DNA of 64,000 bases from NCBI RefSeq assembly GCF_036365525.1, contig NC_090412.1, positions 8,288,123 through 8,352,122 of the forward strand, given 5' to 3'. Of the stretch, positions 13,125 to 63,387 are shown one piece after another (position 1 is the first letter of the stretch; every line of letters starts with the position of its first letter). Source of the stretch: Heterodontus francisci (taxonomy: Eukaryota). The notes beneath the pieces are model-generated. The model worked only from the letters and a program-made list of their open reading frames with translations. It made no database searches and was not told the DNA's origin. The translations under genes and the position numbers were made by a program.

Positions 13125-13282
13125 TCAGGAAATGGCGGGAACTGCACTGCCATCCATCCCAGGTTTCTGGCAGAACCGTCTCTTACAGATGACCCCTGAC
13201 ACAACAATGCCATACATCAGACTGAACAAGGTGATGCTCAGGTACGAGAAAGCTGCCACCTTTAATCCATGGAAAGTATGGG
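13125..13282 (-). CDS. Transmembrane + cytoplasmic exon: (A)HTFHGLKVAAFSYLSITLFSLMYGIVVSGVICKRRFCQKPGMDGSAVPAIS*
   Basis: Strong acceptor ttcattctctttccacag|CC. About 24-aa hydrophobic helix with antigen-receptor (CART-like) spacing Y-x6-S-x2-Y-x3-V-S, followed by KRR stop-transfer and TGA at 13125-13127. Confidence 0.85.
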
Positions 13283-16200
13283 CTGTGGAAAGAGAATGAA
13301 ATAGAAATGAGACACTCAGCAGTGGACTGCAAACGCCTTCCAAAGCAAGAAGATGTAAGGCAAAGCCCATGTCTTACAGAAAACTAGAGTCCACAGCTGG
13401 AACCGATCTACAACAGAACCTTGGTTATCTTCACCACGCCCTTCGTTATGCCATGCCCGAATATCTGCTAAAAGGGTTAATTTATGAGGTCAGTTTGCAT
13501 AGACTGAGCTTGTAATTCTTTGAGTATAGAAGATTAATCAACTCTCCAGCTCTCCAACTCTCTGAGATCTTGTGCATCCCTAACTTCCTTCACCCCACCA
13601 ATAGCAGTCGTACCTTCAGCCACCTGGGCCCTAAGCTCTGGAATTTCCTCCCTAAACCTTTCCACCTCTTCATCTCCATTAAGAGGCTCCTTAAAACCGA
13701 TCTCTTTGACCAAGCTTTTGTGTTTCCTTATTTGGCTCGGTGTCAATTTTCCTCCGATTACACTCCCATGAAGCATCTGGAAACATTTTACTTAATTAAA
13801 GGCACTATATAAATGCAAATTGTTGTTGATTTGAGCTGTTTATTTAGAGAAATAAACCTTAAAATAAAACAAAAGCTCCTTTACCTGAAGGAGAGCCCAG
13901 CATGCTGCTTCCTGCTGTTCCAACAGATACGGAACTCGGATATTTGCACTTCTTCAAATCTGTGAAGGGTTTTGTAAAATGGAGCAATGATTAAAGAAAT
14001 ATTCCATTCCTTTTTACAGAGTCTGCTGCACAAAGAACAAATGGCTGAATCAGTCTATATTCAAATATATATTTTGTACATCTCCTAGATGTAGATATTG
14101 TCATATATGGAGTTAGGTTCTAGATCAGCCCAGGCTAATGTTGGTGGAATTTAACTTCAATTCATTCATCCAAAAAAAGTTGGAATTGAAAGCTAGCCTC
14201 AGTAATGGTGCCATGAAACTATCGTCAATTGTTGTAAAAACCCATCTGGTTCACTAACGTCCTTTAGGGAAGGAAATCTGCTGTCCTTACCTGGTCTGGC
14301 CTACATGTGACTCCAGACCCATATCAATGTGGTTGACTCTTAACTGCCCTCTGAAATGGCCTAGCAAACCACTCAGTTGTCAAGGGCAATTAGGGATGGG
14401 CAACAAATGCTGGCTTTGCCAGTGATGCCCACATCCCATGAAAGAATTTTTTAAAACTCACTGAACAGGGAACAGGCTCGAGGGCCTCCTCCTGTTCCTA
14501 TGTTCCATGCAAAAAGTTGATGGCGTGTGAGTTGACAAATCACTTCCCATGTCTAAACAGTGTGAGGCAGCAGAACAGCAAACTGGTTGTGTTGTCAAAG
14601 CAATTGAGTTGAAACCCTCCGTTGCTGGAGTCTTTCAGAGCTCTGGACAGGCTGCACCTGGAGCACTGGCTTCAGTTCTGGTCACCACAACACTGAGGCG
14701 GGGCATCATTCATACCCTAAACAGCACAAAGAGCTACAAGAGAGTGATGAGAATGTGGAACTCACTACCAGAGGGATTGATTGACGCAAATAGTATAGAT
14801 ACATTTAAGTGGAAGCTAGATGAGTTTATGAGGAAGCAGGGGATTGAGGGTTATGCTAATAGATGAGGAAGGATGGGAGGAGGCTCGAGTGGAGCATTAA
14901 CACTGATAAGAACAAGAACATTAGAAATAGGAGCAAGAGTAGACCATTTGGCCCATCAAGCCTGCTCTTATTCAATACGATCATGGCTAATTTTAGGCTT
15001 CAACTCCACTTTCCCTCTTGCTCGCCATATTCCTTGATTCCCTGAGACACCAAAAATCTATCCGAGCCTTAAATATATTCAACGATGGAGCATCCACAAC
15101 CCTTTGGGGTAGAGAATTACCTGGAGTATTGCGTGCAGTTCTGGTCACCGCATTATAGGAAGGACGTGGAAGCTATGGAAAGGGTGCAGAGGAGATTTAC
15201 TAGGAGGCTGCCTGGTATGGAGGGAAGGTCTTACAAGGAAAGGCTGAGGGACTTGAGGTTGTTTTCGTTGGAGAGAAGGAGGAGGAGAGGTGACTTAATA
15301 GAGACATATAAGATAATCAGAGGGTTAGATAGGGTGGATAGTGAGAGTCTTTTTCCTCGGATGGTGATGGCAAACACGAGGGGACATAGCTTTAAGTTGA
15401 GGGGTGATAGATATAGGACAGATGTCAGAGGTAGTTTCTTTACTCAGAGAGTAGTAGGGGCGTGGAACGCCCTCCCTGCAACAGTAGTAGACTCGCCAAC
15501 TTTAAGGGCATTTAAGTGGTCATTGGATAGACATATGGATGAAAATGGAATAGTGTAGGTCAGATGGTTTCACAGGTCGGCGCAACATCGAGGGCCGAAG
15601 GGCCTGTACTGCGCTGTAATGTTCTAAAAAATTCTAATCTAATCTAAAGAATTCCAAAGATTCACAACCCTTTGAGTGAAGTAATTTCTTCTCATTTCAG
15701 TCCTAAATAATTGGCCCCTTGTCCTGAGACCGTGCCCCCGTGTTTTAGATTCCCCAGCCAGGGGAAACAACCTCCCAGTGTCTACCCTATCCATCCCCTT
15801 CAGAAGCTTATACATTTTAGACATAGACATAGAAAATAGAAGCCGGAGTAGGCCATTTGACCCTTCGGGCCTGCTCCGCCATTGAAAAAAGATCATGGCT
15901 GATGGTCTAATTCAGTACCCTGTACCCACTTTCTCCCCATATCCCTTGATCCCTTTGGCATTAAGAAATATACGCATCTCCTTCTTGAATATATTAAATG
16001 ACTTGGCCTCCACTTCCTTCTGCGGTAGAGAATTCCACAGGTTCACCACCCTCCAAGTGAAGAAATTTCTCATCTCGGTTCTAAATGGCATACCCCGTAT
16101 CCTGAGACTGTGACCCCTGGTTCTGGATTCCCCAGCCATCGGGAACATCCTCCCTGCATCTAGCCTGTCTAGTCCTATTAGAATTTTATAGGGTTCTATG

Positions 16201-19200
16201 AGATCCCCTTGCATTCTTCTAAACTCTAGTGAATATAGGCTTAGTCGACCCAATCTCTCCTCATGCATCAATCCTGCCATCCCATGAATCAGCCTAGTAA
16301 ATCTTCTTTGCACTCCCTCCATGGCAAGAATAGCCTTCCTCAGATAAGGAGACCAAAACTGCACACAATACTCCAGGTGTGGTCTCACCAAGGCCCTGCA
16401 TAACTGCAGTAAGACATCCTTGCTCCTGTACTCAAATCCTCTTGCATTAGAGACAATTTCATAACATTGCCTCTCATTCTTCTAAACTCCAGAGAGTATA
16501 GGCCCAATTTACTCAGTCTCTCATCATAAGATAGCCCTGTCATCCCAGGGACCAATTTAGTGAACCTTCACTTTACCGCCTCCAATGCAAGTGTATCCTT
16601 TCTTAAATGTGGAGATCAAAACTGTACACAGTATTCCAGATGTGGTTAGGCCTGTTTCTGTGCTATATATTCTATGTAATTTTACGTAAATTGGTAATTG
16701 GGAAGGAAGGGGACTGCTCACCACTTTTGAGGCCACCTATTTTCATATCTATTTTCATACCTCTTTTCATATCTCCGCTCTCATGCTGCAGAATGCACGT
16801 GAAGCTGGCCTCACTGTTCCATTCCTCCGCCGTGACAGTCAATGAGCTGACCGTGCTAAATGTCCCTTCTCCCTGTGCAGGAGCCGGTTGACTTGTGACC
16901 GCCTCCGATCGCCTGTTGTCGTTCACCTTCCAGGTCACTCGAATTGGTTCTGGGTTAAAACCCATCGCCAGGCAGACCAGTGTAGCTGTGTTGCTAGTTG
17001 CCAGCTCCTTCTCCAAGGGTTCAAACATGAACAACTTTGGAGAGGAAACACGTGGCTGTCCCTCTTTTTGAGAAAGGAATGGCAGGGAGGAATAACAACA
17101 ATACAGATTAATGACAAAGCTACCCGCACTTTCACAGTGCTCAGAATTAAATTAAAAATCAGGAATTCTTTGAATTCATCGTTACAAATATAAAGTGATC
17201 AATGTAGAAAATCGCTCAAATAATTCATTTGGCTCAACAGGACTATTAAATATTTAAAATGAGCAGGTAAGTGCATTAATCAAATCGGGATGATTTTAAA
17301 AATTCAAACAAGGAAACATTGGCATGCAATGATAATATGAAATATTGAAAATCTTGCTTACCTGACACTATGAGCTGAGTTCCACTACCAAATATATAAG
17401 ACTCCTCAGACCCACAGTGATACAGAGCTGGATAATAATGACAGTATGCAGCACTCACTCCCTGATGGCTTAAGGACAAATGAGATAGCACCATGTCGCC
17501 TCTACAATAAATCCGATTAACTCCTGACATTTACACTTGACGAAGATTGTCAAAGTTTCCATTCTTGCCTCAGTTGGTAGCCAGTAGGCTGTGGGTTCAA
17601 GTCCCACTCCAGGACTTGAGCAGAGAATCCAGGCTGACACTTCATTGCAGTACTGAGGGAGGTGCTGCACTGTCGGAGGTGCTATCTTTCGGATAAGATG
17701 TTAAACCAAGGCCGCGGGTGCCTGTTCAGGTGGATGCAAAAGATCCCATGGCATTATTTTTGATGGAGAACTCTGCTGCACTCAGTGTCCTGACCAATTT
17801 GACTCACTGAATCAACACTACCAAAAAATGAAGAGATTATCTGGTCATTCATTTATTTGCTCTTTGTGGGATCTTGCTGTGTGCAATGTGGCTGTTACGT
17901 TTGCCTACTAAATGGAGACTGCACTTCAAAAGTAATCTGTTAGCTGTAAGGCAGTTTGGTATGTCCTTAAGACATGGAAGGCTACTTATTTATATTCGTT
18001 AAGTATTCAGTAAATCTTTCTTATCTCAGAAACGCTAACTGTATTCATCACTGAGGGGTCTAAGTGTGGATGAATGGCATGTATAATTAGCACTCCAGGT
18101 CAGGAAACTCTGCAAACTACTGGCTAATTAAAGGCACCACCTGCGAACTCCAAACTCTACAACAAAACCAAAAAGAAAAATAATTTCCCTCAGGAAGAAT
18201 TCAGAGCTCAACGGCCAGCAAATCAGAATCACTCTCATTGCTTCGCCAATGTTCTCTAGTCATAATGAACATTGCAACAAGTTATGTGTGGAATAATGGT
18301 CCCTCTAGAAATCAGGAAAGAAATTGCACTGATTTTTATTAGACTGATTTGCCCCCACCCTGCGATCATGGGGATAATCAACAACAGTTCCCATTATATT
18401 AAAAAGATAGATTGTAATGTCTCTCACATGTGTTTCACGTACAATGAATTTGTTGGGAGTGCAGCATTTGCTGTTATGTAGATTTCAGTGTGTTTCTTGT
18501 TGGAATCTGAGACCAAGAAGGCACTATATTCCAACTGGAGTTATACTGGATTAGCACTGAAGCTACCAGGAGTAAAACTACAGCCGGCGAATGTTATCCT
18601 GTCCCATGCAAGGTCAGTTTGTAAATCACTCCAAGTGACGATTCATGCTGGGAAAGGTGTGGAGGTTCTTGTATGATAGAGCTGAGTGCCAGTACCACTG
18701 TGAGACACAGCAGCACAGAAATACATGCCCGAGTCTGCCTTGGTGACCCGCTGAATACTCAGTTGGCATGTATGATTTTTTAAAGTTATGGAGGATTGGT
18801 AACGCTCCCCAAATCCTTCCTCATAGTCGGGCTTAGTCTTTCGGTAAGATGTGGTCAACATCAGTTCAGGGGCCATTTTTGGGTACTGACGATACCACTG
18901 AATGTTAAATTTATTCATGGCGGCTCCCTCCATTCGGCATTCGAAGCTGGCTTCTCGACCGTGGCTGATGGAATTCGACGGTTTAGGCTGAATTACAACC
19001 GCTTGGGAGAAAACTCCTGGCAACAAGGAAGCAGCATTAATTATCCCAAGTCCAGGCTCATTATTTAATGAATGTTCATCACTCCAACATTAACCCTGCT
19101 TTTCACATTTACCAAGGAGGATCAAACTCCTGCTGAATAATCCTGCGGACGGGCTTTAGTTGCAAAAACATTGCACCTTAAAAATTACACCGTAATAGAT

Positions 19201-20607
19201 CATTCACAGCACTACTGTCTGTGGGATCTTGCTATGCATTATAGTCATAGCATTTGAAAATACTTCATTGTCTGTGAAGCACTTTAAGATTAGTTCCGAG
19301 GGCAGTGATAAGGTGCTACTTAGATCCAAAGCTTCCTTTAATTTCAAATGACTCCTAACAGGCATTCCCGATGGGATGGAATTTTTAGAATCACATCGGC
19401 ATTGGATTTGTGACCGTTTCATGTTGGTTGTACAATGGAAATTTAAAGAAGAGAAAGGACTGCAAAAAATCCAAGAAGGATTGGCGATTGGAAATGATTT
19501 CGAACTGAGCCACGAGGGGAGAATTCAAATGGTACAAGAACCAGCTGGGCAGCATCTCATACTGCATGAGATCTCACCAGGGTTCTGGGAGGCAGCCTAC
19601 CTGACAAGTGACTACATAGGAGCTTTATATTAATAAATATTAGGGTGATAAATGACATGTGTATACAGGCCTCGATGATACATCAAGATCACAGCACGCA
19701 GAGATGCTTGACAGTAATGTGCCATTTTTAAGATGTGAACTTGAAATGTTTTAAAGAAATAAACCATGTCCACTATCTGTATATACAAAGAGATCGAATC
19801 TCTATACTAGAAGTGTAAATTGATATGCAGATAAGAAACAAATTTATATAACAATTATTTTACATTCATCAGTTCACAAAACATATGCTGTATCAGTGCA
19901 GTGGGAGTGCAGAGAATTAACAATCACTAAAACAACAAAGAATACATGGTGGAGTAAACTGGGGTGAATCAGTCCAGACCAGCTCAGTCCAGTCCAGTCC
20001 AATCTGGTCCAATCCAGTGAAAAAGTCCTGATCGAAATCAGCAGGCTTTTCCCAATTAGTTTTCTTTCAATGTGCTAAATATCGAATGTTGCTTCTATCG
20101 GGTGTGATAGAACAGTCAGTCGAAAGCTGGGATCTCAAGTCCACAGGCGCACATACTGAGTTAACACACTCAAACATTGCTGGCATTCTGTAATTTAGGT
20201 TTACCTGCTGTTATCTGTGCAGACACACACACATACATGCATTTTACTGTAAAAGTCCTCTGTATGTGTGTGTCTGCATATCTTTACCTACCTTGAAATT
20301 TCAAACCAAGTATAGTTTACTGAGAAGCAGATTATTTTCGAATCGATAATTCTATCTGCGTCTACTGACAGCAATCACTTCTTTGTGCCTGAAAAGCTAC
20401 AATCCTCACGCCAGTAGATTTATCATGAGCAAACTGCAACTCGTGGAATCCCAGACAGACCCAGCACTGAGTGACAGGAGCATTGCCAGTTGCACTCAAC
20501 GTTTCACCACTTTACAAAGTCAGAGCTTGCGAGATGCACAAGTGGAGAGAATTTAACAAGCACTCACCAGTTAGATGGGTCAAGAGCTGGAAAATGAGTG
20601 GCAGCAT
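13125..20607 (-). CDS. Orphan RAG-type rearranging antigen-receptor-like gene (L-V-[23RSS]..[12RSS]-J-C1-CP-TM/CYT), about 326 aa after an in-frame V-J join
   Basis: Six segments with GT-AG boundaries, all introns phase 1, no stops: 20607-20568, 19016-18703, 17412-17362, 17063-16722, 13959-13885, 13282-13125. Canonical Ig V and C1 motifs, FGxG J, complementary 23/12 RSS pair. Confidence 0.9.
13885..13959 (-). CDS. Connecting-peptide/hinge exon with a single Cys: (D)LKKCKYPSSVSVGTAGSSMLGSPS
   Basis: 75-nt phase1-phase1 exon, cccttcacag|AT ... TCAG|GTAAAG. Cys positioned like the TCR interchain disulfide Cys. Confidence 0.75.
14140..14445 (+). mobile_element. tRNA-derived shark SINE (related copies at about 22945-23360 + and 36595-36975 -)
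   Basis: Shared core aaaaacccatctggttcactaa..ccttacctggtctggcc..gactccagaccc in three places. Confidence 0.7.
14740..16645. mobile_element. Nested cluster of CR1 3' fragments in the C-CP intron
   Basis: CR1 C-terminal ORFs on + (15118-15558) and - (15639-15896, 15912-16391) interrupting one another. Confidence 0.85.
16722..17063 (-). CDS. C1-set constant exon
   Basis: ctttctcaaaaag|AG GGA CAG. (E)GQPRVSSPKLFMFEPLEKELATSNTATLVCLAMGFNPEPIRVTWKVNDNRRSEAVTSQPAPAQGEGTFSTVSSLTVTAEEWNSEASFTCILQHESGDMKRGMKIDMKIGGLKS. ATLVCL..GFxP, W and FTCxxxH motifs. 342 nt, donor G|GTGAGC. Confidence 0.93.
17362..17412 (-). CDS. J gene segment (G)SEESYIFGSGTQLIVS(G)
   Basis: FGxG-T-x-L-x-V motif, preceded by a heptamer and followed by a phase-1 donor TCAG|GTAAGC. 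Confidence 0.93.
17413..17440 (+). promoter_or_regulatory. J recombination signal sequence, 12-bp spacer, degenerate nonamer
   Basis: CACAGTG (17413-17419) + ATACAGAGCTGG (12 nt) + ATAATAATG (5/9 to consensus), facing the V RSS (deletional orientation). Confidence 0.8.
17560..17985 (+). mobile_element. DeuSINE/SacSINE-type SINE between V and J
   Basis: tRNA-like head ggttcaagtcccactccag, Deu-like core, cttcaaaagta tail. Confidence 0.75.
18664..18702 (-). promoter_or_regulatory. V recombination signal sequence, 23-bp spacer
   Basis: Minus strand CACAGTG + GTACTGGCACTCAGCTCTATCAT (23 nt) + ACAAGAACC (8/9 to ACAAAAACC), abutting the V coding end. Confidence 0.95.
18703..19016 (-). CDS. V gene segment (Ig/TCR V-set domain, L2+V exon)
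   Basis: Acceptor cttccttgttgccag|GA. (G)VFSQAVVIQPKPSNSISHGREASFECRMEGAAMNKFNIQWYRQYPKMAPELMLTTSYRKTKPDYEEGFGERYQSSITLKNHTCQLSIQRVTKADSGMYFCAAVS. B-strand Cys, WYRQ and DSGMYFC present; ends directly at the heptamer. Confidence 0.95.
20568..20607 (-). CDS. Leader exon (L1) of the antigen-receptor-like gene: MLPLIFQLLTHLT(G)
   Basis: ATG at 20607, 40-nt hydrophobic exon ending G|GTGAGT (phase 1). Splices to GA-GTT-TTC-TCC to give the typical split leader ...LTGVFS|QAVV. Confidence 0.8.
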
Positions 20608-23600
20608 GTTTCTCTACCTTGTGCCTGGGCTGTTTTTTGGGGTCTGATCGATTCTGGTGACTCACTGGTCCAGCATTCACTGGGCTGTGCTGGAAATGAA
20701 CTGCACTGTGTTTGCTGTGTATGAGTGGGTGGGTGTATGTGGGAGGAGCCTCTCAAAGACCAGGCGAGTCTCTGCTGCATCTCCATTGTGACAGTGGCTC
20801 ACAGGGTTTGTGTCTCTGAGGTTTGATATTTTTAAGTTTGAAATGACTAAGTGATGAAACCACTAGAAAGGTACATTTCTTTCCATGCTTAGCTCGTGAA
20901 CTCGTAGCTTTTAAAGAGCACAGAATCTTCATTCAGACTGTGGTTAGACTGAGTAACTGCCAGACCAGTAATTGCAGATGGTCATGCCCAAGTTATACTG
21001 CAGGCTATGCCTCTGAGGAAATAATTCTGTGCAAGTGTGTTCACATACGGTCAAAGAGCTACACTTACACCCCACAGCAGCTATTTGTGTGAAGATGCAT
21101 TTAAGGGGAAGCTAGATAAGCACATGAGGAAGAATGGAATAGACAGATATGTTACATAGAGGGGTGGGAGGAGGTTCATATGGAGCATAAACACTGGCAT
21201 GGACCAGATGGGCCGAATGGCCTGATTCTGTGCTGTAAGCACCATGTAGACACTACGGAGGCACTATAAATGCTCTGGCCTCGATACCTACTAGAGGAGG
21301 AGTGGGGTTCAGTTTTGGCTGTAACTCTTCCTTTGCTGTTCAGTGCTTTTGGAAACTGTGTTTATGAACAGATGACGTGTTGTCAAACTGATGGTTATGT
21401 TTATCTCCACCGTCGATCAGCCTTCACAGCTCTGCTCGCTCTCTGCCACTTGCTTGCCTGCTGCTTCTGAGTAAGTGTGCCACTGAAACAATCACCCACA
21501 AACACAGATCTGAGGTTCAGATAGGTTACTGTCTCTCCATTAGCCAGAACAACAGTGGAAGCTGTTTTCTCCTGTGCTAATGCTTTTTTCCTGCAAACAC
21601 TGGTTGCATGTTAAAGATCCGAGGATCCTGTTTGGAGAGGGCCACACAGATACCCCAGTGTCCAGACTAAAGTTCCTCCCTCAAATATACTTCATGTAAC
21701 TTCTTGGATGTAAAACTCTTTGAAATGCTGCTAAGAGGCAATGATAGGTGCTTACATAAATGCAAGTTTTTCTTTCTCAATATTAAGTGGCTGCTTCAAA
21801 TTTAAGTCATAACATCTGATGGATCCTAAAACAGATAACACCAGTTTCAGCTCCGAAGGAGCGTGAGGTTACCCTACCAAAGCATCCTTACACTAATTGA
21901 CAGGTTTAGATTTGACACACAGCCTTACTGTGACATCTGACCATTGTCAATCAGAAACCACTTCACAATGGTAGAAGGAGTGGGATAACTGAAGTCTGAA
22001 AACGCCCTGACCAAGCTGTCCTTGCACATTGCCTCATACAGCAACAAGTTTCATTTACTTAGCATCTCTAATGTAGAAAAATATCCCAATGCGCTTCACA
22101 AGACTATCAGCAGACAAAGCAAAGCAGGAGATATTGAGAGGGGGTGATCAAAAGCTTGGGCAAAGAGAGAAATTTTATGGAGGGTCTTAAAGGCGGACTG
22201 GGAGGTTGAGAGTTGGAAGGGTTTAGGGAGGGAATTCCAGAGCTTGAACTAGACACTTGAAGTCAGACTGCTAATGACATGGAAAAGGGAGTGGGGGTAA
22301 TGGGAGTAAGAGGGAGCTTGCAACAGTGGGGGCGGTGGGGGGGGGGGATGTGTTGTAGGCTATAGAGATAGGGAGGGGTGAAGCCAGGGAGAGATTTAAA
22401 CATAAGGATGAGAGTTTTAAACTGGAACTGTTGTGGGACCAGCAATGGCAGAGATTAGGATCTTGGCCAGGTAGAAGATGGAGACTTATAGCTAGGAGAA
22501 AAAATAAAATACATTAGGAGAGAGTTTCCACCAGTTGGTGCTGGTTTTATCAGCACAATTCAGCTGAGATCAGCCTGGCCAGCGCTAAAGATTGCAGAAA
22601 TGTAAAGGCAACTTACGTCAAAGCGCAAATCACGCCTCTGTGATCTTTTACGCTGGTTTCCAAAACAGCCCTGCTCACAAAACTGGCCCCGTCCCAGATC
22701 GAAATAATGAGGATGGAAAGTTTCCACTGACTGTGCCCTCAAGGAGGTACTTCAAATTGAGCTGATATCTTTGAGTTAGGCCTGTTTTAAAAGCTTTTAC
22801 ATATTAAAAAATATTTAATTTACTCAGGAACTGATTCGCGTCCATCACTGAAACTAGTAAATGGTTCAGTATAGTTTTTTTTTTGAAGTAATTTTCAGTG
22901 ATTTAACATCAGGTTACTCACACACACAGAACGAGATGCCCTGAGCAAGGTACAGTAACAGAGAAGTTATGTTACTAGACCTAGTAATCCAGAGACCTTG
23001 ATTAATGATCTGGAGACACGAGTTCAAATCCCAATATGACAGCTGGGGAATTTGAATTCAATGAATTAAATAAATCTGAAATAAAAAGCTAGCATCAATA
23101 ATAGTGATCATGAAATACTGGATTGTTGTAAAAACCCATCTGATTCATTAGCGTCCTTCAGGGAAGGAAATCTTCCATTCTTACCTGGTCTGGCCTATAT
23201 GGGAGGACTCCAGACCCACAGCAATGCGGTTGACTCTTAAATACCCTCTGAAATGGTTTATCAAGCAACTCAATTGTATTCAAGAAGGCAGTTCACTGCC
23301 ACCTTCTCAAGGGCAATAAATACTAGCCTTGCTGGTGATGCACACATCTGGTGAACGAATAAAAAAGGCACCCTAGTTAAAAATGATTTTTTTTTGTATG
23401 ATAAGCCCATTTTCAGTGGTATTAACAAAACTACACCAGTTTACCACTCTTAAATACATTAAATATCTTTTAATACATAGAAAATGTAAATGATTACATT
23501 CTATTACATTGCCCATTGGAGCTGATTAATGGAAGATTGTGCTGGTTACGGGTGTGATTAAGCAAACGAGTTTGGGTGGAAACCTGAAGCCATCACTTTG

Positions 23601-26819: not shown

Positions 26820-63387
<36,568 letters not shown>

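What the first reader, a model, noticed from the sequence alone, without database searches (positions are those of the whole stretch)
13125..13282. TCRbeta/gamma-like transmembrane helix with the CD3-binding lysine replaced by Phe
Seen: YLSITLFSLMYGIVVS aligns without gaps to the TCRbeta pattern YEILLGKATLYAVLVS, but F sits at the K position, so the helix has no charged residue. The polar S..Y face shared with membrane Ig is kept. The roughly 19-aa tail (KRRFCQKPGMDGSAVPAIS) has juxtamembrane Cys residues and no Tyr motif. Established: TCR chains assemble with CD3 through basic TM residues, while mIg uses a neutral TM with polar residues to bind CD79. Inference: this chain probably signals through CD79-like partners, through a partner chain, or CD3-independently, making it intermediate between BCR and TCR.
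Basis: partly seen in the sequence, partly recalled or inferred. Interest (0 to 1): 0.75.

Follow-up and report, generated by a model that had tools for sequence, protein, structure and literature searches.

The report
Orphan shark receptor lacking CD3 anchor
This exon is the membrane anchor of a spliced shark immune-receptor gene that matches none of the known T-cell-receptor or antibody chains we could test, and in two species it carries a neutral residue where T-cell receptors have the lysine that docks their signalling partner CD3, so the protein likely pairs through an antibody-like membrane surface and would need some other route to signal.

Summary
Observation confirmed and extended. 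The exon (minus strand, 13282-13125) ends a single leader-V(23-RSS)-(12-RSS)J-C1-connecting peptide-TM cassette. Contigs of two species splice C to a 75-nt Cys-bearing exon and then to this TM exon. Gap-free alignment puts Phe opposite the TM Lys of a gamma-type and a beta-type TCR, and a second, about 97% identical species keeps the Phe codon. The layout is TCR-gamma-like, V is nearest alpha/delta types (at most 36%), C is a generic C1 (at most 43%), and no orthologue record was found. The kept polar residues map to the membrane-Ig chain-to-chain dimer face rather than to the main CD79 contact, so CD79 coupling is unsupported. Against function as a diversified receptor: the contigs seen are unrearranged, no V-J joint was listed, the J nonamer is weak and evidence of selection is mixed. 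Best reading: an orphan antigen-receptor-type chain that likely dimerises and cannot itself dock CD3. Conservation beyond one close relative is untested. The scan had not noted this on other DNA.

The parts
20568..20607 (-). Leader exon (13 codons + 1 base, split leader); TGAGTCA motif about 50 bases upstream of the ATG, no octamer within 1 kb
   Evidence: contigs of organism B end at the donor 20568; leader-to-V joint not listed in either lay
18703..19016 (-). Single V exon, open, in frame with the leader; both Cys and the WYRQ motif present
   Evidence: Pfam V-set E 7.9e-12; only V found in the 64 kb by a V profile
18664..18702 (-). 23-spacer RSS: perfect heptamer, nonamer with 1 mismatch
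   Evidence: the only site of this quality on either strand of the window
17413..17440 (+). 12-spacer RSS of J: perfect heptamer, weak nonamer (4 mismatches)
   Evidence: 4 sites of this quality exist among 19 perfect heptamers in the window, so it rests on position; no difference listed in organism B
17362..17412 (-). Single J segment with FGxG motif, phase-1 donor
   Evidence: J joined to C in one contig each of X6 and X8
16761..17063 (-). C1-set constant exon
   Evidence: Pfam C1-set E 4.2e-21; exon ends from contigs
13885..13959 (-). Connecting-peptide exon, 75 bases, one Cys (likely interchain disulfide)
   Evidence: joints in 4 of 4 runs; 75 letters between C and TM in 2 of 3 organism-B runs; translation
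13125..13282 (-). TM + cytoplasmic exon (the finding); 3' UTR continues past 12500
13224..13226 (-). Phe codon TTC at the position of the TCR beta/gamma TM Lys
   Evidence: unchanged in organism B

Best explanation
The exon anchors a spliced, single-cassette shark antigen-receptor-type chain (V-J-C1-connecting peptide-TM) that has Phe instead of the CD3-docking Lys in two species and likely works as a disulfide-linked dimer, most likely a homodimer with a membrane-Ig-like helix core, that would not itself recruit CD3. Shown: gene anatomy, RSS pair in 23/12 arrangement, C-CP-TM and J-C splicing, Phe in both species. Inferred: (1) RAG joins the one V to the one J in some lymphocytes, inefficiently because the J nonamer is weak, so diversity would be junctional only; (2) the connecting-peptide Cys and the L/A/S/Y/G/S helix face hold two chains together; (3) with no basic TM residue and no Tyr motif in the tail, signalling would need a partner bound by hydrophobic packing or polar contacts, or the dimer is a non-activating or modulating receptor. 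The partner is unidentified; CD79 is possible but not favoured.
For: Anatomy and splicing. Register and Phe. With the core Tyr as anchor, the six mouse IgM dimer-face positions named in PMC9860311 passages (L1, A5, S15, Y18, S19, T23) read L, A, S, Y, G, S here (4 identical, 2 small or polar), against N, Y, S, Y, F, T in human TCR gamma as printed and T, K, N, Y, G, T in P0089; this comparison was made by eye. Old and separate lineage: best single V hit 34-36% among the 150 best of 1.84 billion representatives; C at most 43%, to shark heavy-chain domains, and structurally tied between C-lambda, TCR C-beta, UrIg2 and IgNAR; a dead gene would hardly stay open at that distance from all relatives (inference). 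Listed coding differences between the two species: 10 synonymous, 8 non-synonymous (18 of 21 listed), dN/dS 0.24-0.33, P 0.003-0.07 depending on assumptions; no coding gap listed in the V, C or TM pieces.
Against: No V-J coding joint was listed in 7 runs of 2 samples; contigs run unbroken across the V RSS (X1) and the J RSS (X1, X6, X7, X8), i.e. germline transcripts (joint tables were cut by 306 and 79 rows, and contigs drop rare junctions). The J nonamer is 5 of 9. The non-synonymous rate (1.6-2.2%) does not differ from non-coding divergence (40 of 1894, 2.1%; P 0.6-0.9), so the synonymous excess may partly reflect CpG changes. The linear Y(small)xxxT motif also occurs in the heterodimeric beta chain P0089, so it does not prove a homodimer. 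Only one relative, about 97% identical, was seen. Leader-to-V splicing was not listed.
Confidence: 0.4

Rival explanations
1. It is a beta/gamma-position chain that likely pairs with a TCR delta- or alpha-type chain; the partner's Arg and Lys would recruit two signalling dimers, giving a reduced TCR-CD3 complex without the dimer normally held by the beta/gamma Lys.
For: TM register and the nine-residue distance from core Tyr to the basic stop match TCR gamma; three-exon constant region as in TRGC genes (PMC7349638 section 6 and passages); CP Cys; no Ig octamer; D-less V23/12J arrangement complements a D-bearing chain.
Against: Loss of this Lys usually blocks assembly and export of TCRs (recalled); small residues at the Y-13 and Y+1 positions fit symmetric packing better; V groups with alpha/delta types rather than gamma (81/89, unstarred; gamma not rejected, p-AU 0.37).
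Confidence: 0.22
2. It is a fading locus: an old receptor cassette that is still transcribed and spliced but no longer rearranges or makes useful protein, the Phe being one sign of lost CD3 coupling.
For: Only germline contigs seen in both species; weak J nonamer; dN close to non-coding divergence; no protein record found; the unrearranged leader-V reading frame stops 19 codons past the V end.
Against: All six exons open in the window, splice sites used in two species, synonymous excess; Phe (TTC) is three base changes from either Lys codon, not a single recent hit; no difference listed over the J and its RSS in organism B (119 bases, chance about 0.08).
Confidence: 0.18
3. The main product is a V-less, invariant chain (leader spliced to C or to a cryptic acceptor before J) that would act like a surrogate pre-TCR-alpha-type partner in developing lymphocytes.
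For: Leader, J and C are all phase 1, and two acceptors upstream of J (17523, 17427) keep the frame open; organism-B leader contigs stop at the donor with depth 11-14 while V pieces are 2.6-4.7 (contig depth is a poor measure); weak Pfam PTCRA hit of C, below cut-off.
Against: No such joint listed; the V is intact with a near-perfect RSS; the helix lacks the basic residues of pre-TCR alpha (recalled).
Confidence: 0.1
4. It couples to CD79 like a B-cell receptor.
For: Neutral helix with the IgM dimer face kept and an aromatic residue at the F8 position; sharks have CD79 alpha (PMC4034164 passages); C is as close to light-chain C as to anything.
Against: The F12 position is Thr, and Cys substitution at F12 blocked BCR assembly; no octamer; a single C domain and a TCR-type connecting exon.
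Confidence: 0.1

Closest known systems
TCR gamma chain (TRG; sandbar shark 5V-3J-1C; single V-J-C cassette of salmon locus 2; PMC7349638 section 6)
   Same: V23/12J without D, three-exon constant region (C1, connecting peptide with Cys, TM + tail), TM register, short tail without Tyr
   Different: Phe in place of the TM Lys; one V and one J; 5' neighbour is a PH-domain gene, not AMPH; V does not fall inside the sampled gamma clade; no close match to any gamma record found
Cartilaginous-fish Ig light-chain miniclusters (PMC5192425 passages)
   Same: One V, one J, one C in a cassette; C ties with C-lambda by fold and feature search
   Different: C is spliced on to connecting-peptide and TM exons; V is TCR-like; no octamer
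Membrane IgM TM core (PMC9860311)
   Same: No basic residue; dimer-face positions L1, A5, S15, Y18, small 19, hydroxyl 23 kept
   Different: F12 position is Thr; one C domain; TM and 19-residue tail in one exon
UrIg2 (PMC12227049)
   Same: Shark antigen-receptor-type gene with C1 and TM; its structure is among the top fold hits for C
   Different: UrIg2 has a joined VJ exon, nine or more C domains and a Leu-Leu-Ile-Phe TM centre; this gene has split V and J with RSS and one C
TCR alpha/delta chains and NAR-TCR
   Same: V nearest to alpha/delta-type V domains
   Different: No Arg and Lys pair in the helix, no D, no V array, canonical C1 fold

Membership tests
TCR gamma | V with 23-RSS, J with 12-RSS, no D | tested here: met
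   J nonamer weak; no further RSS between V and J at the thresholds used
TCR gamma | Constant region in C1, connecting-peptide (Cys) and TM + tail exons | tested here: met
   layout from PMC7349638 passages
TCR gamma | Basic residue (Lys) in the TM helix for CD3 | tested here: not met
   Phe in both species
TCR gamma | Locus flanked by AMPH and STARD3NL | tested here: inconclusive
   5' neighbour is a PH_9-domain gene ending at 26823; 3' neighbour outside the window; chicken TRG also has other flanks
TCR gamma | V domain within the V-gamma clade | tested here: inconclusive
   outside the starred clade, but grouping not rejected (p-AU 0.37); labels were set by recalled motifs and no shark gamma V was identified among the rows
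Rearranging antigen receptors (any) | Somatic V-J joining in lymphocytes | tested here: inconclusive
   no joint listed in 7 runs; tables cut and contigs drop rare junctions
TCR alpha/delta | Two basic TM residues (Arg and Lys) | tested here: not met
   residues 8-32 uncharged; Lys 7 lies at the luminal edge
TCR alpha/delta | Translocon with many V and J, D segments for delta | tested here: not met
   one V in 64 kb; no D-type RSS pair
Ig light chain | V-J-C minicluster | tested here: met
Ig light chain | C ends the protein; no TM | tested here: not met
   C spliced to CP and TM exons
Membrane Ig heavy chain / BCR | Neutral TM with S15, Y18, small 19, T23 dimer face | tested here: met
   S, Y, G, S at those positions, Ser for Thr
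Membrane Ig heavy chain / BCR | F8 and F12 for CD79A packing | tested here: not met
   Tyr and Thr
Membrane Ig heavy chain / BCR | V-D-J and several CH domains | tested here: not met
   one C exon spliced straight to CP
Membrane Ig heavy chain / BCR | Assembly with CD79a/b | not testable with these tools
   needs co-expression
UrIg / UrIg2 | Joined VJ exon without RSS and three or more C domains | tested here: not met
   split V and J with RSS, one C
Pre-TCR alpha | No V; basic TM residues (recalled) | tested here: not met
   intact V with RSS, neutral TM; PTCRA hit 19.7 bits is under the 23.1 cut-off

The most novel reading that the evidence does not exclude
This is a fifth, ancient rearranging antigen-receptor locus of sharks: a lone V23-12J-C1-TM minicluster whose homodimeric, charge-free membrane core predates the split between CD3-coupled TCRs and CD79-coupled antibodies, i.e. 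a living example of the post-RAG Ig/TCR precursor that PMC12227049 calls the most speculative step of its scheme.
Probability: 0.17. Interest if true: 0.93.

Novelty: new variant of a known kind. Interest (0 to 1): 0.72.

Why it matters
Jawed vertebrates are described with four TCR chains plus Ig heavy and light chains, and sharks add NAR-TCR, IgNAR and the non-rearranging UrIg genes. A separate, RSS-bearing V-J-C-TM cassette that combines light-chain-style clustering, TCR-gamma-style exons and an IgM-like neutral helix fails a defining test of each family checked. If it rearranges and is shared across sharks and rays, it makes testable how antigen receptors signalled before the CD3 and CD79 systems diverged, and whether V23-12J was the first rearranging arrangement. 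Even if confined to one genus it is a natural test of what a TCR-like chain does without its CD3-docking lysine.

Tried and rejected
Orthologue searches: C against 197-2000 aa proteins gave 4 of 153 candidates, all shark multi-domain Ig at 38-41%; C against 87-279 aa, 0 of 3; V against 183-2000 aa, 0 of 5; full HMMER search with V, best single domain 34% among the 150 listed of 618; metagenome contigs, 0 of 436 pattern matches. These blanks are weak, since constant segments are often annotated without a protein. No whole genome was held, so copy number and the canonical TRG locus of this genome could not be checked. No run is on record as RNA; the spliced joints are what show transcripts. The TM exon alone finds no receptor in PDB or Pfam. 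Rival register: the KVAxF stretch at the start of the helix resembles the TCR alpha motif (recalled) and would keep a Lys, but nothing hydrophobic precedes it and 25 uncharged residues follow, so it was rejected. Idea that J is the stump of a joined VJ exon (its heptamer reads in frame as Y-H-C): a V profile finds no relic upstream. Fold search of C did not separate families: no Foldseek hit at E 0.001 or better, VIA top Z 9.5 and 9.3, then ties near 8 (single-sequence model, pLDDT 72). The P0089 TM stretch found no PDB hit, so its beta label rests on my reading of its sequence. Complex prediction for a TM homodimer was not available. RNA editing at 13237 was rejected as unlikely (G to A on the transcript strand); no DNA run was laid, so allele versus assembly error is open. 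Literature: 9 answered full-text searches plus one search listed no description of this gene. Not held and so unseen: Criscitiello 2010 and 2006, Fu 2019 (PRARP), Ohta 2019, Flajnik 2024; a 1995 report of two TCR-delta-like horn shark cDNAs is recalled only and could bear on novelty. The two supplements of PMC12227049 had no hit for six terms; figures and bioRxiv supplements could not be seen.

Full report
Observation. Residues 8-32 of the exon are uncharged, followed by KRR; a Lys sits at residue 7, at the luminal edge. To test the register without recalled sequences I used two TCR TM regions among the session's hits: P0071 (a bird protein whose TM stretch hits only human TCR chains in PDB, 9 of 11 named gamma, Lys on Lys) and P0089 (a teleost protein that I read as beta-type). 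The best gap-free register puts Phe opposite Lys in both (11 and 5 of 1000 shuffles reach the score; they rank first of 60 hydrophobic segments, by one point).

The gene. Upstream on the same strand lie a leader exon (20607-20568), one V exon (19016-18703; Pfam V-set) with a 23-spacer RSS that is the only one of its quality in the window, one J (17412-17362) with a perfect heptamer, 12-base spacer and a weak nonamer, and one C1 exon (17063-16761). A V profile finds no second V in the 64 kb and no D-type signals lie between V and J. About 6 kb above the leader ends a PH_9-domain gene (PSD/EFA6 family by my recall of its motifs). Below the TM exon the long open frames look like LINE fragments (read by eye). 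The organism was not given; hits point to a shark, and an unchecked earlier AI note calls it horn shark.

Transcripts. Contigs of 4 of 4 runs of one sample join C to a 75-base exon (13959-13885) and that exon to the TM exon with GT-AG ends. The small exon keeps the frame and carries one Cys. In a second organism (3 runs, one sample, another study) C and TM lie in one contig 75 letters apart in 2 of 3 runs, and J is joined to C in the third. All 13 differences in the TM and UTR piece are listed; four are coding (three synonymous, one Ile to Val) and none touches the Phe codon. The relative is only about 3% diverged, so this shows conservation within a narrow group. All four runs of the first organism read Asn instead of Ser four residues before the Phe, on the same helix face; allele or assembly error is not settled.

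What was not seen. No V-J coding joint was listed in the 7 runs. Contigs pass unbroken over the V RSS (X1) and the J RSS (X1, X6, X7, X8), so germline transcripts are present in both species. The joint tables were cut (306 and 79 rows not shown) and contigs drop rare, diverse junctions, so rearrangement is neither shown nor excluded. Leader contigs in the second species stop at the donor, with the partner exon unlisted; leader, J and C share phase, and two acceptors above J keep the frame, so a V-less form is possible. Selection evidence is mixed: 10 synonymous and 8 non-synonymous among 18 of 21 listed coding differences (dN/dS 0.24-0.33; P 0.003-0.07), but dN equals non-coding divergence of 40 in 1894.

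Relationships. No orthologous protein was found. V is at most 36% identical to anything listed; feature search names TCR alpha/delta and gamma V clusters; in a tree of 56 of 151 extracted V domains (at most 11 per motif-based label) it sits on its own long branch beside alpha/delta types (81/89, unstarred), outside the starred gamma, lambda and shark VJ groups, though grouping with gamma is not rejected. C is at most 43% identical, to shark heavy-chain domains, scores higher against these than against two teleost beta-type C domains, is called light-chain-like by features, and ties by fold between C-lambda, UrIg2, IgNAR and TCR C-beta. The chain is thus a mosaic: light-chain-style cassette, TCR-gamma-style exons and RSS, alpha/delta-leaning V, generic C1.

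Mechanism. PMC9860311 (abstract, the first two of seven parts and passages) shows that TCRs assemble with CD3 through basic TM residues, that the conserved polar face forms the chain-to-chain core in both TCR and BCR, and that CD79A packs mainly on IgM F8 and F12. Anchored on the core Tyr, this helix has L, A, S, Y, G, S at IgM positions 1, 5, 15, 18, 19, 23, a closer fit to the symmetric face than human gamma or P0089, while positions 8 and 12 are Tyr and Thr. With the Cys in the connecting peptide, the most likely product is a disulfide-linked dimer, more likely of two copies than with an alpha/delta chain (inferred). It has no basic residue for CD3 and no Tyr motif, so it cannot signal the TCR way by itself; CD79 coupling is possible but one key contact is missing and the promoter has a TGAGTCA motif and no octamer. 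I put the homodimer reading at 0.40, heterodimer with a delta/alpha chain at 0.22, fading relic at 0.18, V-less surrogate at 0.10 and CD79-coupled at 0.10.

Comparison with print. Sandbar shark TRG has 5 V, 3 J and 1 C, and salmon has a lone V-J-C gamma cassette (PMC7349638, section 6 and passages); TRG is flanked by AMPH and STARD3NL in most lineages (PMC8656973 passages). Shark light chains are V-J-C clusters without TM (PMC5192425 passages). UrIg2 has a joined VJ and many C domains, and its authors regard V23-12J as likely ancestral and the Ig/TCR precursor as the most speculative step (PMC12227049: first two parts, most of the discussion, passages, supplements searched). Passages of PMC10751288, PMC6795676, PMC13433984, PMC1845163 and PMC4034164 showed no such gene. 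Ten full-text searches listed no description, but the key subscription papers on shark TCRs were not held, so I leave about one chance in four that it has been reported under another name.

Verdict. It works most like a TCR-gamma-shaped chain with an IgM-like helix, but is filed under none of them. New variant of a known kind; interest 0.72, limited by unproven rearrangement and unknown distribution.

Noticed in passing
window 13237: All four organism-A runs read T (Ser to Asn, four residues before the Phe, same helix face); window and organism B have C. Allele or assembly error; an Asn there could change helix pairing.
   Followed up: partly
window 17362-17619: Germline J-C transcripts that run through the J RSS in both species; contig ends near 17619 probably reflect the adjacent repeat.
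   Followed up: partly
window 20568-20681: Organism-B leader contigs end exactly at the splice donor with the partner exon unlisted; in-frame acceptors at 17523 and 17427 would give a V-less chain.
   Followed up: partly
window 17407-17427, minus strand: The J heptamer reads in frame as A-L-Y-H-C, like the end of a V domain, but no V relic is detectable upstream.
   Followed up: yes
window 18703-19016: V has a third Cys in the E strand at the position where bird and turtle gamma-type V hits (P0153, P0110) also have Cys, and one N-glycosylation sequon beside it.
   Followed up: no
window 26823-36142, minus strand: 3' exons of a PH_9-domain, coiled-coil gene (PSD/EFA6-type by recall); useful as a synteny anchor for finding the receptor cassette in other genomes. 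Paralogue not determined.
   Followed up: partly
P0005, P0009, P0146 and related hits: A shark family of multi-V, joined-VJ transmembrane proteins forms its own supported clade among the V hits and is named 'uncharacterized' or mis-named in databases.
   Followed up: no
window 29626-30042 and 56653-57042: Short tandem repeats that give long low-complexity open frames; probably non-coding.
   Followed up: no
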